A program made the translations under genes and the position numbers. The notes beneath the pieces are model-generated. The model saw only the letters and a list, made by a program, of their open reading frames with translations, was not told where the DNA came from and ran no database searches. A stretch of DNA of 64,000 bases from Chloroflexota bacterium (GTDB lineage Bacteria; Chloroflexota; Dehalococcoidia; Lucifugimonadales; UBA3495): the NCBI GenBank assembly GCA_002721995.1, contig PBMF01000040.1, forward strand, positions 8,382 to 72,381, in the 5' to 3' direction. Of this stretch, positions 18,055-54,187 are shown piece after piece; the first letter of the stretch is position 1; the number at the start of each line of letters is the position of its first letter.

Positions 18055-18179
18055 TCTCCGTGCCATCAGACGCATTCCCTCTCAGGTGCTACCGTTTTGC
18101 ACGCCGGGAGGTAACCGGCCACCGATCAGCGGTGGGCACCGAACTGGCTGCTGCGGTCAGGACCCAAGAGGGGGCAGGC

Positions 18180-19399: not shown

Positions 19400-19403
<4 letters not shown>
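18180..19403 (+). CDS. proV: Glycine betaine/proline betaine ABC transporter ATP-binding protein with C-terminal CBS domains
   Basis: ORF track starts at 18060. ATG 18180 gives MTEQGETIVSLEGVYKIFG. Walker A GLSGSGKST, signature LSGGMQQRVGLARAL, and a ~130-aa C-terminal CBS-like tail. Confidence 0.9.
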
Positions 19404-21520
<2,117 letters not shown>

Positions 21521-39506: not shown

Positions 39507-40543
<1,037 letters not shown>

Positions 40544-40547
<4 letters not shown>

Positions 40548-41335
40548 CGTCGGAAATCCCGCCCCGGCAGCCAGCGGTCGCGGAGGGGGAGCAGGACGGC
40601 CAGGGCCACGACCAGCATCACGAGGCTCAGGGCCAGGGCCCGCTCGGGTTGGGCCTCGAGGGCCAGGAAGGTGGCGAGGGGCAGCGTCTGGGTGCGGCCG
40701 GGCAGGTTGCCGGCGAACGTGATGGTGGCGCCGAACTCGCCGATGGCCCGGGCCCAGGCCAGGGCCAGCCCGGCGCCCATGGCTGGCAGTAGCCGGGGGC
40801 GGGTCACCCGCCAGAGCACCAGGCGGGGCGGGGCGCCCAGCGTGGCGGCCACGCCCTCGAGGTCGTCGAGTTCCCGGCGGGAGGCCTGCAGTGCCCCCTC
40901 CACGGCGAGCACGTAGAAGGGGAGTGCCACGAAGGTGGCGGCGACGATGGCGCCGCCGAGCGTGAACGGCAGGGTGAGGCCGAACCAGCGGTCCAGCCAC
41001 TGGCCGACGAGGCCCCGCCGCCCGAGGGCGAACAACAGGGCGGTGCCGCCCACGACGGGCGGGAGCACCATGGGCAGCACGACCAGGGCCCGGACGAGGC
41101 GCCGGCCCGGCAGGTCGACCCGGGCGAGCGCCCAGGCCAGCGGCGTGCCCAGGAGGAGGACGACCGCGGCGGCGACCAGGCTGACGACCAGCGAGACGCG
41201 CAGCGCGTCGAGGACGACTGCGTCGCCCAGAAGGTCGGGGAGTGCCGTCCACGGCATCCGCTGGAGGAGGCCCAGCACCGGCAGGCCGAGCACCAGCACG
41301 GCGACACCGGCCAGCGCCAGCAGGAGGCGCTTCAC
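40544..41335 (-). CDS. modB: Molybdate ABC transporter permease
   Basis: GTG 41335 overlaps the modA TGA (GTGA). The EAA-type loop region ASRRELDDLEGVAATLGA and the motif IGEFGATITFAGN are typical of ModB/CysT-type permeases. Confidence 0.85.
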
Positions 41336-41997
41336 CGGTCGAACCCGTGTGCGTCGAGGATGCCCGCCGCGACGTCCGACGCCAGGAACCCGACGAACCG
41401 CTCGCCGGCCGGGGTGAGTGCGGCGGCCACGTAGCCGACGGAGGCCGGCAGGTCGGCGATCGCTTCGACGCCGTCGCTGGACAGGACGTCCGTGGCGTAG
41501 ACCACGCCGACGTCGGCCTCGCCGAGTGCCAGCCGTGAGACGACGGCACGGACCGACGCCTCCTCGGTGTCCTGGGCGAGGGGGAGGCCCAGCCGGCGGG
41601 TGGCCGCACCGCAGGGGACGGGCTCGGCGCACACGGCCACCCGGAGGTCCGGGACGGCGAGGGCGTCGGGGCCGGTGACGCCGGCGGGGTTGCCAGCCGG
41701 GACGGCGAGGACGAGGCGGTTCGTCGCGAACGGGACGGCCTCGACGCCGGCGGGAAGCAGGTCCGGGTCGGCGGTGAGGAACACGTCGGCCGGGACGCCG
41801 TCGCGGACCTGCGCGGCCAGGTGGCTCGACCCGCCGAACACGAGGGTGCCGGCCTCGCCGCCCCGCTGCTCGTGGGCGCTCGCCAACTCGGGCAGCACGT
41901 CGGTCAGCGACGAGGCGGCGAGGATCGTGGGGCCGGCCGCCGTGCTGCCGCAGGCGGATAGGAGGGTGAGCAGCGTGAGCGCGACGAGGGTCCGCAT
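41332..41997 (-). CDS. modA: Molybdate-binding lipoprotein
   Basis: 221-aa ORF with lipobox LLSAC. ILAASSLTDVL and VFLTAD blocks are typical of ModA. Confidence 0.85.
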   Translation of the reverse strand: MRTLVALTLLTLLSACGSTAAGPTILAASSLTDVLPELASAHEQRGGEAGTLVFGGSSHLAAQVRDGVPADVFLTADPDLLPAGVEAVPFATNRLVLAVPAGNPAGVTGPDALAVPDLRVAVCAEPVPCGAATRRLGLPLAQDTEEASVRAVVSRLALGEADVGVVYATDVLSSDGVEAIADLPASVGYVAAALTPAGERFVGFLASDVAAGILDAHGFDR

Positions 41998-42010
41998 CCC
42001 GGGACCGTGT

Positions 42011-42403
42011 TCAGCGTGGCCGCTCGATGACGACGTTGGTGGCCTTGACCGTCGCGACGGCGAGGACGCCCGGTTCGAGGCCCAGGTCGTCGACGGCCTC
42101 GGCGGAGATCAGCGAGACGATCCGGTGGGGGCCGGCCTGCACCTCGACCTGGGCCATCACTCCGTCGCGCAGGACCCGGGTGACGAGTCCGGTGAGCCGG
42201 TTGCGGGCCGAGAGGGCCGTGCCGGCCGCGTCGGGCGACTCGGCCAGGTCCTGGGCCAGCGCGGCCAGGTCGGTACCGGCCACGAGGCGGTGGCCGCCCT
42301 CGGTGCGGCGGGCGGGAAGCCGCCCGGCGTCCACCCAGCGCCGGACCGTGTCGGTGCTCACCCCCAGCAGGTGCGCCGATTCTCCGATCTTGAACTCGCT
42401 CAT
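42011..42403 (-). CDS. HTH (MerR/excisionase-type) + TOBE/Mop domain molybdate-responsive regulator-like protein
   Basis: 130-aa ORF. N-terminal IGESAHLLGVSTDTVRRWVDAGRL. C-terminal SARNRLTGLVTRVLRDGVMAQVEV...TVKATNVVIE (TOBE). Lies directly upstream of modA. Confidence 0.75.
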   Translation of the reverse strand: MSEFKIGESAHLLGVSTDTVRRWVDAGRLPARRTEGGHRLVAGTDLAALAQDLAESPDAAGTALSARNRLTGLVTRVLRDGVMAQVEVQAGPHRIVSLISAEAVDDLGLEPGVLAVATVKATNVVIERPR

Positions 42404-42833: not shown

Positions 42834-43802
42834 CTACTCGTCGGCGACGATGTGGCCGGGCTCGACTTCGGAGTGGACGACGATCTCGGGACCGGTGCCG
42901 GCCGGCCAGACCGGACTTGGGATCTCACCGGTCAGCAGCGGCCGCTCGTTGCGCTGCCTCGGATCGGCGATCGGAACGGCGTCGAGGAGGCGCTTGGTGT
43001 AGGAGTGCGTCGGGTTGCGGAACACCTGCTCGCGGGTGCCGAGTTCGACGACCTGGCCGAGGTACATGACCGCCACCCGGTGGGCGATGCGCTCCACGAC
43101 GGCGAGGTCGTGGCTGATGAACAGGTAGGAGAGGCCGAGTTCCTGCTGGAGTTGGAGCATCAGGTTCATGACTTGGGCCTGCACGGACACGTCGAGGGCC
43201 GAGACGGCCTCGTCGGCGATCACCAGCTTTGGGTTCAGGGAGAGTGCCCTCGCGATGCAGATGCGCTGCCGCTGGCCGCCGGAGAACTGGTGGGGGTAGT
43301 TCTGGATGTGGCGGCGTTCGAGGCCGACCAGCTCGAAGAGTCGGGCCACCCGCTCCTTCAGGTCGTCCCCCTTGGCCAGGCCCTGGATGCGCAGCGGCTC
43401 GCCGACGGCGTCGCCGACGCGGACTCTGGGGTCGAGGCTGGCGAACGGGTCCTGGAAGATGATCTGCATCTTCTGGCGCAACGGGCGCATCGCCCGTGGT
43501 CCCAGGTGCGTGATGTCGGTGCCCTCAAGAAGGATCTGTCCCGAGTCGGCCTCGTGGAGCCGGATGATCAGGTTGGCGAGGGTCGACTTGCCGCAGCCGC
43601 TCTCGCCGACGACCGCCAGCGTCTCGCCCCCGCCGATGTCGAGTGACACGTCGACGACGGCGTGGACCCTGGCGTGGTGGTCGGCCGGGAATGTCTTGGT
43701 GACGTTGCGGACCTCGACGAGCGGGTCGTCGACGGTCGCGATGGCGTCCTCGTGTTCGGCCTGGTTCCGGTCGACGGCGCTGGTGGTCGGCGCACCGCTC
43801 AC
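42834..43802 (-). CDS. Peptide/nickel (Dpp/Opp-type) ABC transporter ATP-binding protein
   Basis: 322-aa ORF with GESGCGKST, FSGGQRQRICIARAL and an oligopeptide-type C-terminal extension. GTG overlaps the upstream TGA. Confidence 0.9.
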   Translation of the reverse strand: MSGAPTTSAVDRNQAEHEDAIATVDDPLVEVRNVTKTFPADHHARVHAVVDVSLDIGGGETLAVVGESGCGKSTLANLIIRLHEADSGQILLEGTDITHLGPRAMRPLRQKMQIIFQDPFASLDPRVRVGDAVGEPLRIQGLAKGDDLKERVARLFELVGLERRHIQNYPHQFSGGQRQRICIARALSLNPKLVIADEAVSALDVSVQAQVMNLMLQLQQELGLSYLFISHDLAVVERIAHRVAVMYLGQVVELGTREQVFRNPTHSYTKRLLDAVPIADPRQRNERPLLTGEIPSPVWPAGTGPEIVVHSEVEPGHIVADE

Positions 43803-44647
43803 GTCAGGCTCCCGGCGAGGTGGAAGGGCTCGGGGGCGTCCTTGCCGGCCATGCTGCCGAGGCGGGGCACGGCGCTGATGAGGGCCTGCGTGTAGGGGTC
43901 CCGGGGCGAGTGGAAGATCTGCTCGGCGTCACCCTGCTCGACCACCCTGGACCGGTTCATGACGACGACTCGGTCGGCGACCTCGGCAACGACGCCCATG
44001 TCGTGGGTGATGAGCATGACGGCGGTGCCGGTCTCGACCTGAAGCTGCTTGATGAGGCCGAGGATCTGTGCCTGGATGGTGACGTCGAGGGCGGTGGTGG
44101 GCTCGTCGGCGATCAGGAGGCGTGGGCCGCAGCACAGGGCGATGGCGATCATGATGCGCTGGCGCATGCCGCCCGACATCTCGTGGGGGTACTGGCCGAT
44201 GCGCTTGTCGGCCTCGGGGATGCGGACCAGGTCGAACATCTCGCGGGCACGGGCGAGCGAGGCCTTCTTGTCGAGGCCCTCGTGGATGCGGAGCGCCTCG
44301 GCGATCTGCTCGCCCACCGGGTAGACGGGGTTGAGGCTGGTCAGCGGCTCCTGGAAGATCATCGAGATGTGGTTGCCGCGGATGCCGCGCATGGCGGCCT
44401 CCTTCTGGCGGCGCAGGTCCAGTACGGAGCCGTCGGCCATCTGGAAGTCGATGGTGCCGCTCTTGATTTCGGCCCGGGTGCCGAGTTCGACGAGGCGCAT
44501 GATGGAGAGCGCCGTGACCGACTTGCCCGAACCGGACTCGCCGACCACGGCCAGCGTCTCGCCGGCGTCGATGTCGAAGCCCACGGTGTCGACGGCGGTG
44601 AAGTCGTCGAACGTGACGGTGAGGTCTCGGACGGAGAGCAGTGCCAT
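43799..44647 (-). CDS. Peptide/nickel (Dpp/Opp-type) ABC transporter ATP-binding protein
   Basis: 282-aa ORF with GESGSGKS and [15 protein letters not shown]. Confidence 0.9.
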
Positions 44648-44663: not shown

Positions 44664-45539
44664 CTACCGGCCCCGGAGCTTCGGGTTGAAGGCGTCCTGG
44701 AGGCCGTCGCCGATCAGGCTGATCGACAGCACGGTGAAGAAGATGGCGAAGCCGGGGAACGTCACGGTCCACCAGGCCTCGAGGATGTATCCCCGGTTGT
44801 TGCCGATCATCGAACCCCAGCTGATGGCCGACGAGTCGCCGAGGCCGAGGAAGGAGAGGCCCGCCTCGAACAGGATGGCGACGCCGACGGTGAGGGTGGT
44901 CGCAACCAGCAGCGGTGGCATGGCGTTCGGGAGGATGGTGCGCAGCATGAGGCGGAGGTCTCCGGCGCCGACCGAACGGGCGGCCTTCACGAACTCCATC
45001 TCGCGCAGTCTGAGGAACTCCGCTCGGCTGAGGCGGGCGGTCGTCGGCCACGACACCAGGCCGATGGCCAGCGCCACGGTGCGCGATGACGGCTCGAGCA
45101 TGGTGACCAGAACCATGGCGAACAGCAGCGTCGGGAGCGTCTGGAAGAGTTCGGTGAGCCGCATCAGGGCAGCATCGATCCACCGGCCGTAGTAGCCGGC
45201 CAGGCTGCCGATAACGATGCCGATGACCACGCTCATGGCAGCCGCCACGGCGGCGACGGCCAGCGTCGTCCGACCGCCGCCGATGAATCCGGCGAAGACG
45301 TCCCGACCGAGGTAGTCGGAGCCCATTATGGGGCCGTCCGCCTCGCTGGGGCCGAGGAAGGGTCGCACGACCATCTTCTTGGCATTCACCCCGTAGATGG
45401 AGGGTCCGAAGATTGTCATGAAGGTGATGCCGAGGAAAATGACCGCCCCGACCACGGCAGCCTTGTTCCGGAGGAACATCCGGAAGGCGCCGCGCCCTGG
45501 GCTGGCGGACACGTCGATGGCCAGGCCGGTGTCGGTCAT
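44664..45539 (-). CDS. Dpp/Opp-type ABC transporter permease (DppC-like)
   Basis: 291-aa ORF, multi-TM, with EAA-loop context EFVKAARSVGAGDLRLM. Confidence 0.9.
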   Translation of the reverse strand: MTDTGLAIDVSASPGRGAFRMFLRNKAAVVGAVIFLGITFMTIFGPSIYGVNAKKMVVRPFLGPSEADGPIMGSDYLGRDVFAGFIGGGRTTLAVAAVAAAMSVVIGIVIGSLAGYYGRWIDAALMRLTELFQTLPTLLFAMVLVTMLEPSSRTVALAIGLVSWPTTARLSRAEFLRLREMEFVKAARSVGAGDLRLMLRTILPNAMPPLLVATTLTVGVAILFEAGLSFLGLGDSSAISWGSMIGNNRGYILEAWWTVTFPGFAIFFTVLSISLIGDGLQDAFNPKLRGR

Positions 45540-45573: not shown

Positions 45574-46560
45574 TCATCGGGAGCCCCCCACCCGGATGCG
45601 CGGGTCGATGAGGCGGTAGACGAGGTCGGTGATCAGGTTGGCGACGATGACCATCGCCGCCGAGACGAGGAGTAGGCCCAGCATGAGCGGGGTGTCGCGC
45701 CGCAGGATCGACTCGAAGGCCATGCGGCCCAGGCCGGGCCAGTTGAAGACGGTCTCGACGAGGACAGCGCCGGAGAAGAGGGCGCCGAACTGCAGGCCGG
45801 CGAAGGTGACGATGGGGATGAGTGCGTTGCGGAGTGCGTGCTTGTAGACGACCGTGCGCTCGTTGGCGCCCTTGGCCCGTGCGGTGCGGATGTAGTCGGA
45901 CTCGAGCACCTCGAGCATCGAGGCGCGGGCCAGCCGGGAGTAGTAGGCGAGGTAGATGATGGCCAGGGTCACGGCGGGCAGTACGAGGTGCTCGAGGTTG
46001 TCGAGCCGTTCCCCGAACCAGCCGCCCTTGTAGCGCAGGTCCTCCATGCCCGAGACGGGGAGGATCTGGAACTTGGAGGCGAAGAGGATGATGAGCATGA
46101 TCCCGGTCCAGAAGACGGGGAGGGCGTAGCCGACGAGGCTCATGATCGTCACGCCGTGCGAGAAGGGGCTCTCGGGGCGCCGGGCGGTGTAGACGCCGAG
46201 CAGGACGCCGACGGTGAGGGCTAGGGCGAGGGCGCTGCCGGCCAGCAGCAGCGTGGGCCACATGCGGCCCAGGATCACGTCGAGAACCGGCCGCTGGTAG
46301 TGGAAGGACTCGCCCAGGTCCAGTTGGACCACGTTCCAGATGTAGGTGAGGAGCTGGACGACGAGGGGTCGGTCCAGCCCGTAGTCGGCCCGCAGGCGGG
46401 CCAGGTATTCGGGGTCGCCGGAGCCGGTCTGGCTGGCGAGGACGAGGGCGGCGTCGCCCGGGGCCATCTGGATCAGGATGAAGTTCAGGATCACGACTGC
46501 CAGCAGCAGTCCGAATACCTGAACCAGCCTGAGTCCGATGCCCCGGGCGAGCGCCGTCAC
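45574..46560 (-). CDS. Dpp/Opp-type ABC transporter permease (DppB-like)
   Basis: 328-aa ORF. The N-terminal RLVQVFGLLLAVVILNFILIQMAPGD and DYIRTARAKGANE are typical of DppB/OppB. Confidence 0.9.
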   Translation of the reverse strand: MTALARGIGLRLVQVFGLLLAVVILNFILIQMAPGDAALVLASQTGSGDPEYLARLRADYGLDRPLVVQLLTYIWNVVQLDLGESFHYQRPVLDVILGRMWPTLLLAGSALALALTVGVLLGVYTARRPESPFSHGVTIMSLVGYALPVFWTGIMLIILFASKFQILPVSGMEDLRYKGGWFGERLDNLEHLVLPAVTLAIIYLAYYSRLARASMLEVLESDYIRTARAKGANERTVVYKHALRNALIPIVTFAGLQFGALFSGAVLVETVFNWPGLGRMAFESILRRDTPLMLGLLLVSAAMVIVANLITDLVYRLIDPRIRVGGSR

Positions 46561-46595: not shown

Positions 46596-49544
46596 CTACC
46601 GGTCTAGCCAGGTGTCCATCATGCTCGTCATGAAGCCCCAGGGGCCGTCGGGCACGTTGATCACGTCAGGGTGGCGGCCGAGGTAGATCGGCAGCGTGTT
46701 GATGTAGTACAGCGGGACCTCCTCGGAGGTGATCTCTTGGAACTCGTCGTAGGCGGCCTTGCGCTCGTCGAAGTCGTTCGACTGGGCGGCAGACAGCAGG
46801 AGTTCGTCGACCCGCTCGTTGCAGTACTCCGAGTTGTTGACGAAGTGGCCCTTGATGGCGTTGTCGCACATGTAGATGCGGTGCACGCCGATCACCGGGT
46901 CGCCCCAGTTGAAGTAGGCGTTCATCGTCATGTCCCACGGCTCCGGATCCGGTGCGTAGAACATCCCGGCCCACGACCCGATGTCGGCCGGCTGGTTGAC
47001 GGTCACGGTGATGCCGATCTCGTCCACCGCCTGGGCGATGTACTCGGCCACGTTCTTCTGGTGGGCGTCCGGGCCCGGGATGTAGGTGATCGACAGCTCC
47101 AGCCCGTCGGCGTGGCCGGCCTCGGCCAGCAGCTCGCGTGCCCGATCCAAGTCGACGTCGTATCGCTCGACGTCGGCGTTGTACCACGGGCTGTCGGGGT
47201 GGATGCTCGTCAACTGCTCGCGGGTCTGGCCCATGTGCAGCGTGCCGGTCACGAAGTCCCTGTCGATCGCCAGGGCGATGGCCTGGCGCACCCGCAGGTC
47301 GCTGAGCGCCTCGCTGTTCAGGTTGAACTGCAGCTCGTTGGTCGGGCCGACGCCGAAGGCGTGGTCGTTGTCGAGCACGAGGTCGGCGTTCTCGGCGATG
47401 CGCTGGGCGTTGAGCGGGTTGGCGAAGCCGTAGGCGTCGATCTCGCCGTTCTCCAGCCCCAGGATCGCCGAGTTCTCGTCGGCGACGACGTTGATGATGA
47501 TCTCGTCCAGGTACGGACGGCCCGGGATGAAGAAGTCCTCGTTCTTGGTGAGGTGGATCCGCTCGCCCGAGACGAACTCGGTCAAGGTGAACGGTCCCGA
47601 GCCCACCACGTCGGTGTGGTTCCGCGGGTGCTCCCTGAGCTCCTCGATCGGCGTGCCGTCGTCGAAAATGTGCTTCGGCATGATCGGCAGCAGCACGTCG
47701 GACACCGCCGCGACCAGTGCCGGGTGCGGGTGGTCGAGAGTCAGCACGATGGTGTGCGGGTCCGACGTGTCGAAGCCCGTGATCGGGGCCAGCATCGGCT
47801 TGAACGGGTGGTTGGCTTGGACCGCCTGGATTGAGAAGGCCACGTCCTCGGAGGTGATGGGCTCACCGTCGTGGAAGGTGGCGCCCTCGACCAGGTTGAA
47901 CGTGGCCGTCAGGCCGTCGCCGGAGATGTTCCAGTCGGTGGCCAGGTAAGGATGCGGCGTCCAAGTCGAGTCGAGCGTCACCAGGGAGGCGAACACCTTC
48001 GAGCTCGGGAGGCCGATGCCCACACCCGACTGCATGCCGTGGTTGACGTGGGCGCCGCCCTGCGTGGTCGCGAGGATGAACGTGCCACCCGACTTGGGCT
48101 GCACGATCGCCTCGATGTCGCCGACCTGCTCGCCACCGGCCAGCGGGGCGTACTCGTAGACCACGTTGGCGGTGGAGGCCGCGTAGTCGGTCGAGTCGGT
48201 GTTCTGGATCACGGTGATCTTCGCCGACGAGCAGTCGCCGAAGTCGTCGCACGACATGGAGCCGATGAGGCCCGAGTAGTTCGACACCGAGTGGAGGTGC
48301 TCGCGCACCCCGGCCCGGTCGATCACCAGCGTGCCGTCCTGGTCGTAGGAGGCGGCGTCGATGGCGTCGAGCAGCAGCACGGCGGCGTCGTACGAGTGCG
48401 CCCAGAACGGGGCGGCCGGGGCCTCACCGAACTCGGCCTCGTAGTCGGCCAGCACGTCGGCGGCGGTCGCACCGGTGGACTGGTTGAAGTTCTCGCCGTA
48501 GCGCACGTCGGGACCCGAGAAGTACATGCCCTCGGTCTCGGCCAGCGCCAGGTAGTTGCTGTTGAGCAGGCCGTCGGCTGCCATCATCACGGTGCCTTCG
48601 AGGCCGGCGACGGTCTCGGACTGCTGGATGATGAAGTCGCCTTCGGGCTGGAAGATCGGGAAGAACAGCAACTCGGGGCCGCCGGCGGCGACCTCGGTCA
48701 GGACCGGCACCATGTCGGTGTCGCCCTTGTTGACGGCGGTGAAGCCGGTGAGGGTGCCACCGCCCGCCTCGAAGGCGTCGGCGAAGGCGCGGGCGAGGCC
48801 CTCGGTGTAGGGGTCGCCGTCGTGGATCGCCGCAGCCGACGACACGCCGAGCACCTGCAGGGCGAAGTTGGCCGCGGCCTGGCCCTGGTAGAGGTCGTTG
48901 TGGGCGGTGCGGAAGTAGCCCGCGTGGTAGTTCGGGCCAGCCGTTCCGGCCAGGTCGGAGGTGAGCGCCGGCGACGTGTTCGAGCCCGAGACCATCACCA
49001 TGCCGGCCTCGGAGATCAGCGGGCTGGCAGCGGTCGCCGCGCCGGAGCACGACGTGCCGATCACGCCGATGACGTCCTCGTCGGCGACGATGATCTGCGC
49101 AGCCGCCTGGCCGCCGTCGGCCGAACACAGGTCGTCCATGCCGGTACCGACCTCGACGTCGTGGCCGTCGATCTGACCGTAGTCCTCGACGGCCATGCGG
49201 ATGCCGTTCTCGTTCGGGATGCCCAGGAACGCGACGTCGCCCGAGATCGCGTTCAGCGAGCGGATCTGAATCGCCTCGCCCGGACCGACTTCGACGGTTC
49301 CGAGCGAACCGTCGCCCAGATACTCGCCGGGTGCCATGGTCGTCGTGGTCTCCGGCGCAGCGGTGGTCGTGGTGGTGCTGGCCGGGGCCTGGACGGCCTT
49401 GGTCGTGGTCGGTGCGGCGGTGGTGGTGCTCGCCGCCTTGGTTGTCTCGGGGGCGCTGTCGCTTCCCCCGTCGGAGCCACAGGCACCGGCGATCATCGTG
49501 AGCGCTAGTCCCAGGGCCATCAGTACACGTCGATGTCGACGCAT
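46596..49544 (-). CDS. Lipoprotein fusing a LivJ-like (type I, Peripla_BP_6) domain to a family-5 (SBP_bac_5, DppA/OppA-like) substrate-binding domain
   Basis: 982-aa uninterrupted ORF. Signal and lipobox (IAGAC), then a Thr/Ala/Pro-rich linker. Residues ~75-465 look like a branched-chain-amino-acid binding protein (IRSLNAISGDVAFLGIPNENGIRMAVEDY, VIGVIGTSCSGAA). Residues ~485-982 look like a peptide/nickel SBP (GGTFILATT, ATDWNISGDGLTATFNLVEGATFHDGEPITSEDVAFS). Confidence 0.85.
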   Translation of the reverse strand: MRRHRRVLMALGLALTMIAGACGSDGGSDSAPETTKAASTTTAAPTTTKAVQAPASTTTTTAAPETTTTMAPGEYLGDGSLGTVEVGPGEAIQIRSLNAISGDVAFLGIPNENGIRMAVEDYGQIDGHDVEVGTGMDDLCSADGGQAAAQIIVADEDVIGVIGTSCSGAATAASPLISEAGMVMVSGSNTSPALTSDLAGTAGPNYHAGYFRTAHNDLYQGQAAANFALQVLGVSSAAAIHDGDPYTEGLARAFADAFEAGGGTLTGFTAVNKGDTDMVPVLTEVAAGGPELLFFPIFQPEGDFIIQQSETVAGLEGTVMMAADGLLNSNYLALAETEGMYFSGPDVRYGENFNQSTGATAADVLADYEAEFGEAPAAPFWAHSYDAAVLLLDAIDAASYDQDGTLVIDRAGVREHLHSVSNYSGLIGSMSCDDFGDCSSAKITVIQNTDSTDYAASTANVVYEYAPLAGGEQVGDIEAIVQPKSGGTFILATTQGGAHVNHGMQSGVGIGLPSSKVFASLVTLDSTWTPHPYLATDWNISGDGLTATFNLVEGATFHDGEPITSEDVAFSIQAVQANHPFKPMLAPITGFDTSDPHTIVLTLDHPHPALVAAVSDVLLPIMPKHIFDDGTPIEELREHPRNHTDVVGSGPFTLTEFVSGERIHLTKNEDFFIPGRPYLDEIIINVVADENSAILGLENGEIDAYGFANPLNAQRIAENADLVLDNDHAFGVGPTNELQFNLNSEALSDLRVRQAIALAIDRDFVTGTLHMGQTREQLTSIHPDSPWYNADVERYDVDLDRARELLAEAGHADGLELSITYIPGPDAHQKNVAEYIAQAVDEIGITVTVNQPADIGSWAGMFYAPDPEPWDMTMNAYFNWGDPVIGVHRIYMCDNAIKGHFVNNSEYCNERVDELLLSAAQSNDFDERKAAYDEFQEITSEEVPLYYINTLPIYLGRHPDVINVPDGPWGFMTSMMDTWLDR

Positions 49545-49625
49545 TGATCCCCTCCAAAGTGGTGGTCAGTGGGTTGAGTGATCAGGTTCCGACGGAGCGG
49601 GTGCCCTTCACGGTGGTGTCGAGCC

Positions 49626-49666
49626 GTGACCGGGGTCACGACTTGACAGTACGGTACGGTACCGTA
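49626..49666. promoter_or_regulatory. Two palindromes in the divergent SBP / tetR control region (candidate TetR operators)
   Basis: gtgacc-gg-ggtcac at 49626-49639 and the perfect 12-bp palindrome tacggtaccgta at 49655-49666 (with an adjacent tacgg direct repeat). They lie between the SBP start (49544) and the tetR start (49725). Confidence 0.4.
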
Positions 49667-49724: not shown

Positions 49725-50336
49725 ATGACCGACTCCCCGACCGAGAACAAGTCGAGCAACGCCGGCCCACCTGAGTCCGATCCGGCCACTGCGGCCATCC
49801 TCGACGCCGCAGCCCTCCTGCTCGCTGAACGGGGCGTCTCCGGCTTCACCTCCGACGCCCTCGCCAAGGCCGCAAGCGTCTCCAAGAGCAGCATCTACTC
49901 GCGGTGGCGCAGCAAGGACGAGATCTTCGTTTCCCTCACCGGGCACGTGGCCGGAGCGGCAACCGTCGCGGACGTTGGCGACCTCGCCGCCGAGCTTCGA
50001 GCCTGGTTCGTCGACCGGCAGAAGGTGTACAACCAGCCGGGCTTCCGACAGGTGATCACGAGCCTGGTCGAGGTCGCCTCCCACGACCCTGTGGTGGACT
50101 CGGAGATGGCCGTCTACCTGCACAACCAGCACACCACGTTCAAGCAGATCGTGCGGCGGGCCCAGGAGCGCGGCGAGGTCGACTCCGGCTGGGACCCCGC
50201 ACTCCTCGAGGAGTACGTCATCGGACCGGTCATGTACCGGGTGCTGCTCGACGACGAACCGCTCGACGACGAGACACTCGACGCCTTCCGGCGGCTGGCC
50301 ATGACCGCACTGCTCGGCACACCGCCTCCTGCGTGA
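49725..50336 (+). CDS. TetR-family transcriptional regulator
   Basis: 203-aa ORF with HTH LDAAALLLAERGVSGFTSDALAKAASVSKSSIYSRWRSKDEIF. Confidence 0.88.
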   Translation: MTDSPTENKSSNAGPPESDPATAAILDAAALLLAERGVSGFTSDALAKAASVSKSSIYSRWRSKDEIFVSLTGHVAGAATVADVGDLAAELRAWFVDRQKVYNQPGFRQVITSLVEVASHDPVVDSEMAVYLHNQHTTFKQIVRRAQERGEVDSGWDPALLEEYVIGPVMYRVLLDDEPLDDETLDAFRRLAMTALLGTPPPA

Positions 50337-51961
50337 TCACCGTCTTCACCGCACGGCGGGTCCGGACCATGGATCAGTCGCTACCCGAGGCGACGGCCGT
50401 GGCGGTGCGGGACGGGCGCATCGTCGAGGTCGGCACGCTCGAGACCCTCCAGCCGTGGCTGACCCGCCACGAGCACGTCGTCGACGACCGTTTCGCCGAC
50501 GACGTGCTCCTGCCGGGCCTGATCGACCCGCACATGCACCCCGGGCTCATCGCCCTGCTCCTGGCCTGTGAGTGGGTCACCCCCGAGGCCTGGGACCTCC
50601 CCGGCCGGCAGGTGCCGGCGACGCATGGGCGAGACGCGTTTCTCGCCAGGCTCGGTGAGCTCGAAGCCGCCCAACCCGCCGGTGAGCCCCTCGTCGTGTT
50701 CGGGTTCCACGCCCAGTTCCACGAGGAGGTCTGGCGAGCCGACCTCGACGCCATCTCCACCGGGCGCCCGATCGTGCTCTGGCAGCGGTCGTTCCATGAA
50801 CTGCGGTGCAACACCCCCGCCCTCGAGTGGCTGTACGCCTCCGAGGCGGCCGCCTGGGACCCCTACATCGACCTCGAGTCCGGCCGCATGTGGGAATCGG
50901 GCATGGCGTTCGGCCTCCGCGCCCTCAGCCCCCACCTGGTCGGTGGCGAGAAGCTCGGTGGCCGCCTCGCCGAGGTGGTCGGGATGGTCCACCGGGGTGG
51001 CGTCACCACGATCGGCGACCCCGGCTACGGCGTGCTCGACCTGGACCACTACCTCGAGACGCTGCTCAGCGTGCACGAGGGTTCCGACGTGCCGTTCCGC
51101 CAGTACCTGATCCCGGCCATCGGCCGCTACCGCATGGCGTACGGACCCGGCTTCGCCGACACGCTGGCCGACCACGAGTCGCGGGGCACGGACCGGATCC
51201 GGTTCCTGCACGCCGGCAAGTTCTTCGCCGACGGGGCGTTTATCGCCCAACTCATGCAGGTCGGCCCGCCCGGTTACATCGACGGCCACGAGGGGGCCTG
51301 GATGGCGAACCCCGACCGGATCGCCGACCACCTCCGACCCTCCTGGGAGGAGGGGCGCCGCATCGACGTCCACGTCAACGGCGACCGCGGCCTCGATGCG
51401 GCCCTGGACGCCATCGACATGCTCCTGCACGAGACGCCCCGCTTCGACCACCGCACCGTCATCCACCACTTCGGGGTCTCGACCCAGGCCCAGGTGCGAC
51501 GCATGGCGGCGCTGGGCGTCTCGGCGCAGGCCAACGGCTACTACCTGCGGTTCTTCGGCGACGCCTTCGTGGATCGCTGGCTGGGCCACGAGCGGGCTTC
51601 CCAGATGACCCGCGTGGGATCGGCCCGACGACACGGCATCAGCGTGGCCCTCCACTCCGACCTGCCGATGGGGCCCCTGCAGCCGCTGTTGGCGGCGTCG
51701 ATCATGGCGACCCGGACGTCGATGTCGGGTGAGGTGCTCGCCCCCGAGGAGCGGCTGTCGCCGGAGGACGCCCTGGGCGCCGTCACCATCGAGGCCGCCT
51801 GGCAGTTGCGCCTCGACCACGAGGTCGGCTCGCTGGCCGCCGGAAAGCAGGCCGACCTGGTCGCCCTGGCTGACGACCCGCTGGACCTCGACCCCGCCGA
51901 CTGGCCCGACATCCCCATCCGGGCCACCGTCCTCGGCGGCGAGGTGTACACGGTTGGCTGA
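50333..51961 (+). CDS. Amidohydro_3-type metal-dependent amidohydrolase
   Basis: Frame of ORF 49904..51961. GTG 50333 overlaps the tetR TGA (GTGA). VITVFTARRVRTMD...AVAVRDGRIVEVG and LLPGLIDPHMHP (HxH). The C-terminal ADLVALADDPL is typical of PF07969. Confidence 0.8.
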   Translation: MITVFTARRVRTMDQSLPEATAVAVRDGRIVEVGTLETLQPWLTRHEHVVDDRFADDVLLPGLIDPHMHPGLIALLLACEWVTPEAWDLPGRQVPATHGRDAFLARLGELEAAQPAGEPLVVFGFHAQFHEEVWRADLDAISTGRPIVLWQRSFHELRCNTPALEWLYASEAAAWDPYIDLESGRMWESGMAFGLRALSPHLVGGEKLGGRLAEVVGMVHRGGVTTIGDPGYGVLDLDHYLETLLSVHEGSDVPFRQYLIPAIGRYRMAYGPGFADTLADHESRGTDRIRFLHAGKFFADGAFIAQLMQVGPPGYIDGHEGAWMANPDRIADHLRPSWEEGRRIDVHVNGDRGLDAALDAIDMLLHETPRFDHRTVIHHFGVSTQAQVRRMAALGVSAQANGYYLRFFGDAFVDRWLGHERASQMTRVGSARRHGISVALHSDLPMGPLQPLLAASIMATRTSMSGEVLAPEERLSPEDALGAVTIEAAWQLRLDHEVGSLAAGKQADLVALADDPLDLDPADWPDIPIRATVLGGEVYTVG

Positions 51962-51980
51962 GTCGCCCGCGGCCCCCGAC

Positions 51981-52910
51981 ATGCGCATCCCGATGCTGGT
52001 CCTGGGCGGCTGGCTGGGGTCCGGCAAGACCACGCTGGTCAACCGGCTGCTGGCCGAGGCGCCCGGCGACGAGCGCATCGTCGTGCTGGTCAACGACATC
52101 GGCGAAGTCGACGTGGACGCGGCGCTCATCGCCTCCCGGACGGGCGACACCGTCGAACTGACGAACGGTTGCGCCTGCTGCACGATCGGCGGCTCGCTGG
52201 GGCTCGCCCTGCGCGACCAGGTGGTTGGCCCGAACCCACCCGACCGCCTCGTCGTCGAGGCCAGCGGCGTCGCCGAGCCCGACCGCGTCGCCGCCTACGG
52301 CGACAGGCGCCGGATCCGCCCCGACGGCGTCGTCGTGTGCGTCGACGCGTGCGAGACACCGTCGCGCGCCGACGACATCCGGTGCGGGGAGTTGTTCCGA
52401 CGGCAGGTGGCGGCGGCCGACCTGCTGGTCGTGACCAAGGCGGACCTGCTGGTCGGGGACGGCGACGGAGGCGATGCCGCGCGCAGGTGGCTGGCCGACA
52501 AGGCGACGGCCCCGGTCATGACCGCCTCGCCGGCCACCGGCTGGGTGGCCTCGCTGCTGTGTGGCGCGGGTGGCGCCGAGGAGCCGGACCGCCAGATTCC
52601 TGTTGGCCCGCTCGACTTCCCCGTCCGGACGGCCACCTGGACCAGCCCGACGTCCCGTGCCGCCGACGTGGCGGCCGTGCTCGGGCAGGCCGCCGGGGAC
52701 CGCGGCCTGCTCCGGGCCAAGGGCATCTTCGCCGACGGCGTGGTGCACCTGGCCGCAGGCCGGGCCGCCGTCGACGAACGAATCCCCGGCAGCGCCGCAC
52801 CCGGCCACCTCGTGCTGATCGGCCTCCCGGACTGGGAGCCCGGTGCGCTGCTCGCACAACTCGACGAGATCCCGAACCAGGAACCCGCCCGATGCGCACC
52901 CCCGAACTGA
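51981..52910 (+). CDS. CobW/COG0523-family G3E GTPase (putative metallochaperone)
   Basis: ATG 51981 gives MRIPMLVLGGWLGSGKTTLVNRLL (P-loop). CXCC motif as NGCACCT. About 309 aa, with no His-rich tail. Confidence 0.85.
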   Translation: MRIPMLVLGGWLGSGKTTLVNRLLAEAPGDERIVVLVNDIGEVDVDAALIASRTGDTVELTNGCACCTIGGSLGLALRDQVVGPNPPDRLVVEASGVAEPDRVAAYGDRRRIRPDGVVVCVDACETPSRADDIRCGELFRRQVAAADLLVVTKADLLVGDGDGGDAARRWLADKATAPVMTASPATGWVASLLCGAGGAEEPDRQIPVGPLDFPVRTATWTSPTSRAADVAAVLGQAAGDRGLLRAKGIFADGVVHLAAGRAAVDERIPGSAAPGHLVLIGLPDWEPGALLAQLDEIPNQEPARCAPPN

Positions 52911-54187
52911 TCGTCCAGCAGTCCGACCCCGAGACCGGCCGCGGCCGCCCGGTTCGCGTCGATGCGCTGCCGGAGCCCACGACCGCCGCCGAGGCGGGCC
53001 TCATGGTGGGATGTCCTCCGGCGCCGCACCTCCGGGTGAGCCGCCAGAACTGGATGGCCTACCCGCAGTCGCTCTGGTCGTTTCGGCACATGGAGGAGCT
53101 CGGCCCGGCGGCGAGGATTGACCGGGGCAGCGGACCCGTCGACGAGTTCGTCCGGGGCGAGGACACGCTCGGCCTCGCCGACCTGAACTTGGAGGGGGAT
53201 TCCGGAGGGAACTGGGACCTCGCCGAGTTCCTGCGCCGAACCTACACCGACGCCCTGCTTGTCGCCCACCGGGGCCGTCTGGTGCACGAGTGGTACGCCG
53301 ACGGCATGGGGCCGACCACCCGGCACGCCATGTTCTCGACGACTAAGACCTTCAGCGGGCTGGTCGCCCTGCTGGCGATCCACGACGGCGAACTCGCGCT
53401 CGACGACCTCCTGGTCGACCACGTCCCGGAGCTGGCCGGCACCGGCTGGGAGCCGGTCACCGTCGAGCAGGCCCTCGACATGACCGACGGCATCAGCTTC
53501 GAGGAGGACTACGGCAGCCGCGACTCGTCGATCATGCGCTACGGGTTCGCCATGGGCTTCACGCCCATGCCGAGCCGGTGGGAGGGGCCGGTCGGCATCC
53601 GCGAGGCGCTGCGTACGTTGGTCGAGCGGTCGACGCCGCCGGGCGAGTCGTTCCTCTACACGTCGGCCACGACGGACGCCCTGGCCTGGGCGGTGGCCAG
53701 GGTCACCGGCCGACGCTGGTCGGAGGAGGTGTCGGCGAGGATCTGGCAGCCGTTGGGGGCGGCGTGCGACGCCGGGATCTCGATCGACCCCACCGGCCTC
53801 GAGATCGCCTCGGGCGGCATGTTCGCCACGGCCCCCGACCTGCTGCGCTTCGGAATGATGCTGGCACGGGGCGGGACCAACGGCGCCGGCGAGCAGGTCC
53901 TCCCGGGAGCGGTGGTGAGCGACCTCGTCGAGGGCGGTGAGCCCGACCCGGACGGCTGCGGCGGCTACGCCACCCGGGCCGGCTGGAGCTTCCACCGCCA
54001 GTGCTGGAACCAGTACCGGTCCTGGGGGTCGCTCATCCCGATGGGCGTCCACGGCCAGCGGCTCTTCATCCATCCCGGGGCCGAGCTGGTCGTGATGAAG
54101 TTCGGCTGCCACCCGGTCACCGGCAACGTCTTCACCGACGAGGTCCACCAGCGCTTCTACGAGGAGCTGCTCTCCCGAGCGGGCTAG
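52892..54187 (+). CDS. Serine hydrolase of the beta-lactamase/transpeptidase-like family
   Basis: ATG 52892 (MRTPELIV) overlaps the cobW-like 3' end by 19 nt. SxxK as FSTTKTF. About 431 aa. Confidence 0.8.
   Translation: MRTPELIVQQSDPETGRGRPVRVDALPEPTTAAEAGLMVGCPPAPHLRVSRQNWMAYPQSLWSFRHMEELGPAARIDRGSGPVDEFVRGEDTLGLADLNLEGDSGGNWDLAEFLRRTYTDALLVAHRGRLVHEWYADGMGPTTRHAMFSTTKTFSGLVALLAIHDGELALDDLLVDHVPELAGTGWEPVTVEQALDMTDGISFEEDYGSRDSSIMRYGFAMGFTPMPSRWEGPVGIREALRTLVERSTPPGESFLYTSATTDALAWAVARVTGRRWSEEVSARIWQPLGAACDAGISIDPTGLEIASGGMFATAPDLLRFGMMLARGGTNGAGEQVLPGAVVSDLVEGGEPDPDGCGGYATRAGWSFHRQCWNQYRSWGSLIPMGVHGQRLFIHPGAELVVMKFGCHPVTGNVFTDEVHQRFYEELLSRAG

What the first reader, a model, noticed from the sequence alone, without database searches (positions are those of the whole stretch)
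46596..49544. Single 982-aa lipoprotein fusing two unrelated substrate-binding protein classes (LivJ-like + DppA/OppA-like)
One uninterrupted ORF encodes:
- A signal peptide with lipobox (IAGAC).
- A Thr/Ala/Pro-rich linker.
- A ~390-aa domain that reads like a branched-chain-amino-acid/urea-type (type I, Peripla_BP_6) binding protein.
- From about residue 485, with no second signal peptide, a ~500-aa family-5 peptide/nickel binding domain.

The junction (…VVYEYAPLAGGEQVGDIEAIVQPKSGGTF…, about nt 48100-48150) has no stop or frame change. The gene heads a Dpp-type permease and ATPase operon, which normally partners only with family-5 proteins. No LivHMGF-type permease is nearby. Tandem fusions of two identical-class binding domains are known, but I do not know of a fusion of these two structurally distinct classes. 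It could deliver two ligands, capture a composite ligand such as an amino-acid-conjugated peptide, or use the LivJ-like domain as a sensor or lid.
Basis: partly seen in the sequence, partly recalled or inferred. Interest (0 to 1): 0.75.

Follow-up and report, generated by a model that had tools for sequence, protein, structure and literature searches.

The report
Two-in-one nutrient-binding lipoprotein, LivJ cassette family
One real gene in a marine Acidimicrobiia genome joins a complete amino-acid-type binding protein to a complete peptide-type binding protein on a single lipid anchor, and it belongs to a larger, apparently undescribed family in which the same LivJ-like module is grafted onto many unrelated transporter binding proteins.

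Summary
A 982-aa ORF on the minus strand (46596-49544) encodes a lipobox signal peptide, a Thr/Ala/Pro linker, a complete LivJ/LivK-type module (PF13458) and a complete family-5 module (PF00496). It heads dppBCDF.

It is not an artefact. The identical protein occurs on 13 contigs from several separate public assemblies. Diverged orthologues keep the fusion.

The new point is that the LivJ half is a recurrent cassette in marine Acidimicrobiia:
- At 78-92% identity it is fused to SBP5, OpuAC, Bmp, SBP3, NMT1-type and other PBP6 domains, with up to four binding domains in one 1526-aa protein, and to a Ser/Thr kinase.
- In relatives at 57-71% identity the same module is usually standalone or tandem, directly upstream of livHM(GF).
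- Eleven pocket-equivalent positions are nearly invariant in 64 modules, fused or not.
- The module evolves more slowly than its SBP5 partner.
- In four of the five fused loci whose downstream genes were read, the last domain matches the downstream permease; in one locus the fused gene lies between livHM and dppBCDF.

Best reading: a poly-binding-protein lipoprotein serving two importers, the adjacent Dpp system and a Liv-type system encoded elsewhere. This is a new variant of tethered or tandem binding domains. No description was found in the literature searched. Ligands are untested.

The parts
46596..49544 (-). Whole gene: 982-aa fused binding-protein lipoprotein (stop codon at 46596-46598)
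   Evidence: ORF list and translation. The identical product is on 13 contigs from several separate public assemblies.
49549..49555 (-). Ribosome-binding site GGAGGGG, 5 nt upstream of the ATG
   Evidence: Read directly from the sequence.
49479..49544 (-). Lipoprotein signal peptide, residues 1-22, with lipobox IAGAC (Cys22)
   Evidence: Sequence inspection. Relatives have the same type of N-terminus. No signal-peptide predictor was run.
49323..49478 (-). Thr/Ala/Pro-rich tether predicted to be disordered, residues 23-74
   Evidence: Composition. pLDDT is 21-27 in the full-length model. Weak Pfam mucin/glue-like low-complexity hits.
48111..49322 (-). LivJ/LivK-type (type I, Peripla_BP_6) binding module, residues 75-478
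   Evidence: PF13458 E 1e-32. E. coli LivK/LivJ are the best solved relatives. AF2 pLDDT 91. Foldseek target-normalised TM 0.90 to T. maritima LivK 3td9 and 0.86 to the Leu-bound 4n0q. Pocket-equivalent residues are nearly invariant across 64 modules.
48087..48110 (-). Short inter-module linker, residues about 479-486. The conserved tail LAGGEQVGD... starts at residue 469, inside the preceding part as delimited
   Evidence: The linker tail is conserved within a LivJ subclade whatever the partner. Standalone and tandem forms end right after NVVY. Confidence is low at the end of the module model.
46599..48086 (-). Family-5 (Dpp/Opp/Nik-type, SBP_bac_5) binding module, residues 487-982
   Evidence: PF00496 E 5e-73. 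pLDDT is about 85-95. Foldseek target-normalised TM 0.80-0.87 to DppA 6ofq, CtaP 5isu, NikZ 4oeu and AapF 7kz8. It is 47-51% identical over its full length to standalone 518-aa proteins of marine Rhodobacterales.
45574..46560 (-). DppB-like permease
   Evidence: PF00528 + PF19300.
44664..45539 (-). DppC-like permease
   Evidence: PF00528 + PF12911 OppC_N.
43799..44647 (-). DppD-like ATPase
   Evidence: PF00005 + PF08352 oligo_HPY.
42834..43802 (-). DppF-like ATPase
   Evidence: PF00005 + PF08352.
49725..50336 (+). Divergent TetR-family regulator, the candidate regulator of the operon
   Evidence: PF00440 + PF16859. This position is conserved in all four assemblies shown.
49610..49655 (.). Imperfect inverted repeat in the TetR/transporter intergenic region, a candidate operator
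   Evidence: 22-nt arms, 77% complementary. It contains the perfect palindrome TACGGTACCGTA. Function is not tested.

Best explanation
**Shown**
- The gene encodes one membrane-tethered lipoprotein that carries two complete, independently folding binding proteins in series. The order is lipid anchor, a disordered T/A/P tether of about 52 residues, a LivJ-type module, a linker of about 10-18 residues, and a family-5 module.

**Inferred**
- The C-terminal family-5 module captures a peptide-like or related ligand and docks on the DppBCDF importer encoded immediately downstream.
- The N-terminal LivJ-type module binds an alpha-amino-acid-type ligand. It delivers that ligand to a LivHM(GF)-type importer encoded elsewhere in the genome.
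- One polypeptide therefore serves two importers from one anchor.
- The gene is one member of a paralogous set in marine planktonic Acidimicrobiia. In that set a conserved 'LivJ cassette' (signal peptide, tether, LivJ module, short tail) replaces the signal peptide of other binding proteins. The result is chains of two to four binding domains.
- The likely benefit is speculation: a high, co-expressed dose of the amino-acid binding protein and more capture sites per unit of membrane in a small, single-membrane oligotroph.
For: - **Both halves are complete binding-protein folds.** Pfam, solved relatives, AF2 plus Foldseek.
- **The fusion is real and maintained.** The identical protein is on 13 contigs. 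Orthologues with saturated synonymous divergence keep one ORF.
- **The LivJ module is a genuine transporter binding protein in relatives.** At 57-71% identity it is standalone or tandem directly upstream of livH-livM in most of the loci recovered at that identity. In L005 the full livHMGF set follows it.
- **Its pocket is preserved.** The positions equivalent to LivK 77-79, 101, 102, 150 and 202 are identical in all 64 modules, fused or liv-linked (S-C-S, N-T, Y, F). Positions 18 and 100 vary only L/F and S/G. Positions 226 and 276 are D and F in all but four distant standalone modules.
- **It is under strong constraint.** dN is 0.065-0.19 with dS about 1. In the same gene pair (window against L012) LivJ is 82% identical, against 60% for SBP5 and 69% for DppB.
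- **The last domain matches the downstream permease in four of the five fused loci whose downstream genes were read.** These are the window, L007 and L008 and L015, where LivJ-Bmp is followed by a Bmp-type permease set. The fifth, L011, is unresolved.
- **L017 places the fused gene between both permease sets.** The order is AMP-binding | livH | livM | [LivJ~SBP5] | dppB | dppC | dppD | dppF.
- **Two further loci lack a separate binding-protein gene.** L078 and the single-cell genome locus L014 show livHM or livHMGF followed by a LivJ gene that is cut at the contig end. No separate LivJ-type binding-protein gene lies nearby.
- **The fusion point is exact.** A standalone orthologue of the SBP5 half (P0122) has its own lipobox and linker exactly where the LivJ cassette sits here.
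- **There is precedent for tethered domains working independently.** In GlnPQ two binding domains joined by a 14-residue linker bind ligand largely independently (PMC8025302).
Against: - No ligand binding or transport has been measured.
- No Liv-type permease is in this 64-kb window. The rest of this genome was not available, so the partner importer is assumed.
- Several paralogues carry the same LivJ pocket. That looks redundant for a pure transport role.
- The module also occurs in proteins that are not transporter binding proteins. Examples are the Ser/Thr kinase P0236 and the zinc-ribbon/TM protein P0111. It could therefore act as a sensor or a generic extracellular module.
- L009 (LivJ-Bmp-PBP6) has no transporter downstream.
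- L017 and L078 lack LivG/F-type ATPases next to livHM.
- It has not been shown that a module in mid-chain can dock on a permease.
Confidence: 0.55

Rival explanations
1. The LivJ module is a sensor or regulator rather than a transport binding protein. Binding of an amino acid to the N-terminal module would modulate the neighbouring binding domain or the Dpp importer, for example coupling peptide uptake to amino-acid availability.
For: - A 78%-identical copy is the extracellular domain of a Ser/Thr kinase (P0236).
- More distant PBP6 modules sit with Bmp or SBP5 domains in receptor kinases (P0341, P0343).
- The pocket is conserved, which a sensor also needs.
Against: - The window protein has no signalling domain.
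- The same module is joined to at least six unrelated partner classes, so a specific allosteric interface with each is unlikely.
- The linker is flexible and of low confidence.
- In relatives the module is the only binding protein of livHMGF operons.
Confidence: 0.15
2. The LivJ module has been co-opted as a structural stalk, spacer or carrier. It would hold the functional C-terminal binding protein away from the membrane or help its export and anchoring, with no ligand role of its own.
For: - It is almost always the N-terminal globular module.
- It travels with the signal peptide, tether and a conserved tail as one cassette.
- It occurs in front of non-transporter domains (P0111).
Against: - A spacer would not need eleven near-invariant pocket positions shared with liv-linked homologues at 57% identity.
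- A spacer would not need dN/dS of about 0.05-0.15, tighter than the partner domain.
- In P0003/L008 an OpuAC module precedes it, so it is not obligatorily first.
Confidence: 0.1
3. The protein is a polyprotein precursor that is cleaved at the conserved junction into separate binding proteins after export.
For: - The tail after NVVYEYAP is conserved within subclades.
- Some downstream modules keep a remnant lipobox-like Cys at their start: P0118 ...EGAC, P0109 ...LAAVC, P0105 ...AGAC.
Against: - In a single-membrane cell a released C-terminal domain would have no anchor and would be lost.
- The window junction has no Cys and no hydrophobic segment.
- No protease motif was identified.
Confidence: 0.05
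4. The two halves cooperate on one composite ligand, for example an amino-acid-conjugated peptide, which is delivered to DppBCDF.
For: The two halves are close together, about 10-18 residues apart.
Against: - The same LivJ module with the same pocket is paired with glycine-betaine-type, nucleoside-type, NMT1-type and polar-amino-acid-type domains.
- The SBP5 orthologue also exists standalone (P0122) and with other N-terminal passengers (P0121 OpuAC-Bmp-SBP5).
Confidence: 0.04
5. Artefact: two adjacent genes were merged by a sequencing or assembly error, or by a chimeric join.
For: Many metagenomic contigs break inside the LivJ module (L018, L035, L065, L071, L073, L078). Some N-terminus/C-terminus combinations in other database proteins could therefore be chimeric.
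Against: - The identical ORF is on 13 contigs from different assemblers and samples.
- Orthologues at 60-82% identity keep the fusion.
- There is no signal peptide for the second half.
- A chimera within the repeat cannot create a LivJ-X junction that lies outside the repeat.
Confidence: 0.02

Closest known systems
GlnPQ of Lactococcus lactis (tandem substrate-binding domains SBD1-SBD2) and OpuA-type importers
   Same: Several binding domains lie in one polypeptide, joined by short flexible linkers (14 residues between SBD1 and SBD2). They are tethered at the outer face of a single-membrane cell, and each domain binds its ligand largely independently (PMC8025302).
   Different: - In GlnPQ the domains are of one structural class, are fused to the permease itself, and feed that one permease.
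- Here the domains belong to different classes (PF13458 and PF00496), hang from a lipid anchor rather than the permease, and by inference feed two different importers.
LivJ/LivK with LivHMGF (E. coli branched-chain amino acid importer, HAAT family)
   Same: - The N-terminal module is the same fold and the closest solved relative by sequence.
- Ser79, Thr102 and Tyr150 equivalents are kept, and Glu226 becomes Asp.
- Homologues at 57-71% identity head livHM(GF) operons.
   Different: - Identity to LivJ/K is about 25%.
- Tyr202 becomes Phe.
- The module is not free-standing, is lipid-tethered, and no liv permease is adjacent in this window.
- The ligand is unknown.
DppA/OppA/NikA-type family-5 binding proteins with DppBCDF
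   Same: The C-terminal module has the full fold (target-normalised TM 0.80-0.87). It is followed by two PF00528 permeases and two oligo_HPY ATPases.
   Different: - Every NCBIfam equivalog (DppA, OppA, NikA, Opp4A, GsiB, SapA) scores far below its cut-off, so the substrate cannot be assigned.
- The module lacks its own signal peptide.
- Its nearest non-Acidimicrobiia relatives are uncharacterised Rhodobacterales proteins.
Tandem LivJ-LivJ lipoproteins (and a triple form) of sponge-associated and other Acidimicrobiia, found here
   Same: They carry the same module at 60-71% identity, the same lipoprotein N-terminus, and more than one binding domain per chain.
   Different: They are same-class repeats placed directly upstream of livHMGF. 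They carry no foreign binding-protein class.
Receptor Ser/Thr kinases with extracellular periplasmic-binding-protein domains
   Same: PBP6 modules, alone or next to Bmp or SBP5 domains, form the extracellular part (P0236, P0341, P0343).
   Different: Those proteins have a transmembrane helix and a cytoplasmic kinase. The window protein has neither.

Membership tests
Peripla_BP_6 / LivJ-type (HAAT-family, type I) substrate-binding proteins | Sequence match above Pfam's curated threshold | tested here: met
   PF13458 scores 114.6 bits against a 31.7 cut-off, residues 92-429.
Peripla_BP_6 / LivJ-type (HAAT-family, type I) substrate-binding proteins | Complete two-lobe type I binding-protein fold | tested here: met
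   AF2 pLDDT 91, pTM 0.90. Foldseek target-normalised TM 0.90 to 3td9 and 0.86 to 4n0q.
Peripla_BP_6 / LivJ-type (HAAT-family, type I) substrate-binding proteins | Residues that hold the alpha-amino and alpha-carboxylate groups in LivJ/LivK. I take these from memory of the LivJ/LivK structures as Ser79, Thr102, Tyr202 and Glu226, plus Tyr150 and an aromatic at position 18. | tested here: inconclusive
   Ser79, Thr102 and Tyr150 are kept. Glu226 becomes Asp, Tyr202 becomes Phe, and Trp/Tyr18 becomes Phe or Leu depending on the alignment. This is compatible with an amino-acid-type ligand but is not proof.
Peripla_BP_6 / LivJ-type (HAAT-family, type I) substrate-binding proteins | Encoded with LivH/LivM-type (PF02653) permeases | tested here: not met
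   None in the 64-kb window. The feature is met for homologues: L005, L017, L014, L078 and most of the loci recovered at 57-71% identity.
SBP_bac_5 (Dpp/Opp/Nik-type, cluster C) substrate-binding proteins | Sequence match above Pfam's curated threshold, and the full fold | tested here: met
   PF00496 scores 246.7 bits against 32.4. pLDDT is about 85-95. Target-normalised TM is 0.80-0.87 to DppA, CtaP, NikZ and AapF.
SBP_bac_5 (Dpp/Opp/Nik-type, cluster C) substrate-binding proteins | Encoded with two PF00528 permeases and two ATPases carrying the oligo_HPY C-terminal region | tested here: met
   the same arrangement is seen in four assemblies.
Specific equivalogs DppA / OppA / NikA / Opp4A / GsiB / SapA | Score at or above the NCBIfam curated cut-off | tested here: not met
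   The best hit is Opp4A at 148.5 bits against a 650 cut-off. DppA scores 102.6 against 1005. The substrate is left unassigned.
Bacterial lipoproteins (Lgt/Lsp substrates) | Basic n-region, hydrophobic h-region and a lipobox [LVI][ASTVI][GAS]C | tested here: met
   MRRHRRVLMALGLALTMIAGAC, by inspection. No predictor was run, and lipidation cannot be tested here.
Tandem-SBD ABC importers (GlnPQ type) | Binding domains covalently fused to the transmembrane domain, and of one structural class | tested here: not met
   The permeases are separate genes. The two domains belong to different Pfam families.

The most novel reading that the evidence does not exclude
- Marine planktonic Acidimicrobiia carry an exchangeable 'LivJ cassette': lipoprotein signal peptide, T/A/P tether, LivJ-type module and a conserved tail.
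- The cassette is grafted onto the front of many unrelated binding proteins, and even onto a kinase. This builds chains of two to four different binding proteins on one anchor.
- Each chain would feed several ABC importers at once. In this lineage the Liv-type importer may get its binding protein only in fused form.
- That would be an undescribed way of organising binding-protein-dependent uptake in membrane-limited, single-membrane oligotrophs.
Probability: 0.4. Interest if true: 0.75.

Novelty: new variant of a known kind. Interest (0 to 1): 0.6.

Why it matters
- **A textbook assumption may not hold here.** Binding proteins set what an ABC importer can take up, and they are among the most abundant proteins of ocean bacteria. 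The usual picture is one binding protein (or same-class tandem domains) per importer. A lipoprotein that strings together binding proteins of different structural classes would serve importers of different permease families.
- **Annotation.** One gene should no longer be read as one substrate or one transporter in these genomes. This affects metabolic inference from marine Acidimicrobiia MAGs and from metaproteomes.
- **Mechanism.** It raises the testable question of how a mid-chain or distal tethered binding domain docks on its permease.
- **Ecology.** It suggests a strategy for packing more capture sites onto a small cell without a periplasm.
- **Engineering.** It offers natural scaffolds for multi-ligand biosensors.
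- **Domain evolution.** The cassette-like behaviour of the LivJ module is a tidy case of domain shuffling among extracytoplasmic proteins.

Tried and rejected
- **Frameshift or assembly artefact:** rejected.
- **Concerted evolution or recent duplication as the cause of LivJ conservation:** rejected for the loci tested. Paralogues in one MAG are only 77-85% identical at the DNA level (L012/L035 83.6%, L010/L018 77%). Orthologues across MAGs reach 91-99%. Conservation is therefore at the protein level.
- **dN/dS:** synonymous sites are saturated (dS about 1 or undefined). Only the relative dN of LivJ, SBP5 and DppB within the same gene pair is used.
- **First full-length AF2 model:** it gave pLDDT below 50 for most of the LivJ half because only about 10 sequences covered it. 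I re-ran the module alone with 55 sequences. No inter-domain geometry is claimed.
- **Substrate of the SBP5 half:** NCBIfam equivalogs are all below cut-off. Solved relatives bind peptides, Ni-His, opines and other ligands. No call was made.
- **Rfam and tRNA scans of the window:** nothing found.
- **Promoter and terminator scan of the operon:** uninformative for this high-GC actinobacterial DNA.
- **Literature:** five full-text searches for fused, tandem or multi-domain binding proteins and for marine Acidimicrobiia found only GlnPQ/OpuA-type work. None described hetero-class fusions. Absence from this library is not proof of absence.
- **Window ORF 19400-21520:** checked as a possible permease-binding-protein fusion. 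It is a ProW-like permease with a long extra membrane-spanning C-terminus, not a binding domain.
- **Module tree against partner tree:** LivJ modules fall into two subclades with partners intermixed. I could not decide between cassette exchange and lineage effects, because the genome of origin of most metagenomic proteins is unknown.


Full report
**1. What is in the sequence**

The ORF is on the minus strand: 46596..49544, 982 aa, ATG start. A GGAGGGG ribosome-binding site lies 5 nt upstream. The plus-strand ORFs over the same DNA are the usual high-GC shadows; local GC is about 65-70%.

The product has these parts, in order:
- A lipoprotein-type signal peptide, MRRHRRVLMALGLALTMIAGAC|G.
- About 52 residues rich in Thr/Ala/Pro.
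- PF13458 Peripla_BP_6 at residues 92-429, E 1e-32.
- PF00496 SBP_bac_5 at residues 529-854, E 5e-73.

The junction (...NVVYEYAPLAGGEQVGDIEAIVQPKSGGTF...) has no stop, no frameshift, no hydrophobic segment and no second lipobox. Downstream on the same strand are two PF00528 permeases and two ATPases with the oligo_HPY region, that is dppBCDF. A TetR gene is divergent, with an imperfect inverted repeat in the intergenic region. tblastn with LivH and LivM from a relative finds no Liv-type permease in the whole 64 kb.

**2. It is not an artefact**

The identical 982-aa protein is recorded on 13 contigs. The four shown come from a TARA Oceans assembly, a JGI metagenome, NCBI MAG GCA_002433135.1 and a Logan assembly. 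All four have the same neighbours. Orthologues at 60-82% identity keep one ORF (P0002, P0005, P0006, L012, L016, and P0003/L008 with an extra OpuAC module in front). Their synonymous sites are saturated.

**3. Both halves are complete binding proteins**

*LivJ half*
- The closest solved relatives by sequence are E. coli LivK and LivJ.
- Modelled alone with 55 homologues, it gives pLDDT 91 and pTM 0.90.
- It superposes on T. maritima LivK (3td9, target-normalised TM 0.90), on a Leu-bound Brucella protein (4n0q, 0.86) and on Atu2422.

*SBP5 half*
- It is modelled at pLDDT about 85-95.
- It matches H. pylori DppA, Listeria CtaP, NikZ and AapF at target-normalised TM 0.80-0.87.
- It is 47-51% identical over its full length to ordinary 518-aa binding proteins of marine Rhodobacterales.
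- All NCBIfam equivalogs fall well below cut-off, so I do not name its substrate.

**4. The unexpected part: the LivJ half is a recurrent cassette**

A homologue search with the whole protein and Pfam checks show the same LivJ-like module at 78-92% identity in many architectures:

| Architecture | Examples |
|---|---|
| LivJ-SBP5, three further SBP5 subfamilies | P0104, P0117, P0106, P0105 |
| LivJ-OpuAC | P0107, P0108, P0112, P0233 |
| LivJ-OpuAC-OpuAC | P0115 |
| LivJ-Bmp | P0234, L015 |
| LivJ-Bmp-PBP6 | P0118, L009 |
| LivJ-NMT1 | P0237 |
| LivJ-(unassigned, NMT1-like)-Bmp | P0109 |
| LivJ-PBP6-like | P0110 |
| LivJ-SBP3-Bmp-SBP5, 1526 aa | P0105 |
| LivJ-OpuAC-Bmp-SBP5 | P0243 |
| OpuAC-LivJ-SBP5 | P0003 |
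| Ser/Thr kinase-TM-LivJ | P0236 |
| Zinc-ribbon/coiled-coil-TM-LivJ-repeats | P0111 |

Other observations on the family:
- In the library clustered at 50% identity, 58 of the 150 best representatives are at least 600 aa. Every representative with a complete module at 62% identity or more is at least 697 aa.
- The SBP5 half's own orthologues occur in several forms. One is standalone with its own lipobox (P0122). Others carry different passengers (P0121 OpuAC-Bmp-SBP5; P0127, a truncated gene call that retains the tail of an SBP3-like module; this is by sequence comparison, Pfam finds only SBP5 in it). In each the N-terminal boundary is where the LivJ cassette joins here.
- More distant PBP6 modules (40-45% identity) are combined with SBP5 or Bmp in giant surface proteins and receptor kinases of other lineages.
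- NCBI record titles place the close relatives in marine Acidimicrobiia. They include single-cell genomes AG-410-B14 and AG-410-I20 and 'Candidatus Microthrix sp. UBA2983'.

**5. What the LivJ module normally does**

I scanned one genome per species with the module and mapped modules with my own phmmer profiles. Most of the loci recovered at 57-71% identity show a standalone (about 450 aa) or tandem LivJ directly upstream of livH-livM; a minority carry LivJ-NMT1like fusions or show no liv permease nearby. These are sponge-associated and other Acidimicrobiia. L005 has the full livHMGF set.

In the planktonic clade:
- L017 reads AMP-binding | livH | livM | [LivJ~SBP5] | dppB | dppC | dppD | dppF.
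- L078 reads AMP-binding | livH | livM | LivJ..., cut at the contig end.
- The single-cell locus L014 reads livH | livM | livG | livF | SDR on the opposite strand | LivJ..., cut at the contig end.
- L015 shows LivJ-Bmp followed by a Bmp-type permease set. Its module DNA is 93% identical to that of L013, which is the same contig as L014 in the opposite orientation.

In four of the five fused loci whose downstream genes were read, the last domain matches the downstream permease. In several cases the Liv permeases lie just upstream of a LivJ gene that is fused or cut at a contig end, with no separate LivJ-type gene nearby. L011 is unresolved, and L009, which is followed by an integrase, is an exception.

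**6. Is the fused LivJ still a working binding module?**

*Pocket residues.* I examined eleven positions equivalent to the LivK ligand shell (18, 77-79, 100-102, 150, 202, 226, 276). Their identity as ligand contacts is from my memory of the LivJ/LivK structures. In the 64 modules they read L/F, S/T, C, S, S/G, N, T, Y, F, D and F, whether the module is fused or liv-linked and down to 57% identity. The only other departure is four distant standalone modules with A and Y at positions 226 and 276. Relative to LivK:
- Ser79, Thr102 and Tyr150 are kept.
- Glu226 becomes Asp.
- Tyr202 becomes Phe.

*Constraint.*
- Between paralogues and orthologues, DNA identity is 70-87% while protein identity is 78-92%.
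- dN is 0.065-0.19 with dS about 1.
- Within one gene pair (window against L012), LivJ has dN 0.137, DppB 0.235 and SBP5 0.333.

This pattern fits a ligand-binding, partner-docking protein. It does not fit a decaying spacer.

**7. Evolutionary notes**

- Standalone and tandem forms end immediately after NVVY. Fused forms read through into a tail of about 10-20 residues that is conserved within a LivJ subclade whatever the partner. The tails are LGGxQVGD[IV] in one subclade and AGSSEGSGDLVAPVIP or GGSSLGEGHLVVP in the other.
- Some downstream modules retain a remnant lipobox Cys.
- In NJ trees the LivJ modules form two subclades with partners intermixed. The window's LivJ lies in one subclade, while the LivJ modules of its SBP5 orthologues lie in the other.
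- Several proteins share identical N-termini and modules but different C-terminal domains (P0107/P0110/P0115; P0109/P0113).
- Many contigs break inside the module.

This points to cassette exchange among paralogues. Lineage effects and some assembly chimeras cannot be excluded from metagenomic data. A chimera inside the repeat still cannot invent a LivJ-X junction.

**8. Mechanism I commit to (confidence about 0.55)**

The protein is a poly-binding-protein lipoprotein.
- The SBP5 half serves the adjacent DppBCDF importer.
- The LivJ half binds an amino-acid-type ligand and serves a LivHM-type importer encoded elsewhere.
- The long disordered tether and a short inter-domain linker let each domain reach the membrane.

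GlnPQ gives the precedent. Its two tethered domains are joined by 14 residues and work largely independently (PMC8025302).

What is shown: architecture, completeness, conservation, genomic associations and reality of the fusion. What is inferred: the ligands, dual delivery, and the selective advantage.

Rivals: sensor or regulator (0.15), structural stalk (0.10), cleaved polyprotein (0.05), composite ligand (0.04), artefact (0.02).

**9. Comparison with the known, and verdict**

It works like tethered or tandem binding domains (GlnPQ/OpuA) but fails their defining features. The domains are not fused to the permease and are not of one class. Each half is a member of its Pfam family. The LivJ half fails the 'adjacent liv permease' criterion in this window only.

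Five full-text literature searches found no description of hetero-class binding-protein fusions. Public databases hold many such proteins under generic names.

I rate it a new variant of a known kind, with interest 0.6. It is a real, recurrent and apparently unrecognised architecture with a testable mechanism. It is not a new kind of machine, and its function is so far only inferred.

Noticed in passing
window 49725-54187 (+): TetR 49725-50336, Amidohydro_3 about 50369-51961, CobW-family GTPase about 51981-52910, beta-lactamase-fold protein about 52892-54187; M20 peptidase at 57844-59205: A conserved cluster is transcribed divergently from the fused-SBP/dpp operon: TetR, a large amidohydrolase, a CobW metallochaperone-type GTPase and a PF00144 serine hydrolase. 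An M20 peptidase and an S9 peptidase lie nearby. This suggests the transporter feeds a peptide or amide catabolic route. The coordinates are mapped from L001 gene calls.
   Followed up: partly
window 39507-42403 (-): A molybdate-type ABC system (SBP_bac_11 ModA 41332-41997, permease, ATPase with a TOBE domain) is preceded by a small MerR-HTH+TOBE regulator at about 42011-42403. It lies directly downstream of dppF, and this position is conserved in the orthologous locus L008.
   Followed up: partly
window 18060-21520 (+): An ABC ATPase (18060-19403) is followed by a 706-aa ProW-like permease. After the PF00528 core and an acidic (DA)n stretch, this permease carries about 350 extra residues with several predicted membrane-spanning segments and no Pfam match.
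   Followed up: partly
L024, L029, L038, L039, L049, L068 (sponge-associated 'Ca. Aldehydirespirator' and relatives), locus coordinates about 6.7-12.3 kb: A tandem NMT1like-NMT1like binding-protein gene (about 870 aa) sits immediately upstream of a LivJ-NMT1like fusion gene; in L039 only a LivJ module is seen on the ORF at that position. Binding-protein fusion is therefore common beyond the planktonic clade. The downstream permeases were not identified.
   Followed up: partly
P0111 (847 aa) and P0120 (915 aa), database proteins: The close LivJ module also occurs behind a cytoplasmic zinc-ribbon/coiled-coil or SHOCT-like region and a transmembrane helix. In P0111 it is followed by two copies of a Cys-rich repeat of about 75 residues with no Pfam match.
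   Followed up: no
L017 1-3261 and L078 5676-9803: The livH-livM pair that precedes the LivJ~SBP5 fusion is itself preceded by an AMP-binding (acyl-CoA synthetase-like) gene. It has no LivG/F-type ATPase genes next to it; the only ATPases in the cluster are the Dpp-type pair.
   Followed up: partly
L009 3533-4591: A phage-type integrase gene lies directly downstream of the orphan LivJ-Bmp-PBP6 gene in 'Ca. Microthrix sp. UBA2983'. This hints that some poly-SBP genes sit next to mobile DNA.
   Followed up: no
L013/L014 (contig CACFCV010000019.1 of single-cell genome AG-410-B14): The same 21.4-kb contig was returned in both orientations with a LivJ match at each end. This looks like an inverted-duplication chimera, plausibly from single-cell amplification. 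I used it only for gene order.
   Followed up: no
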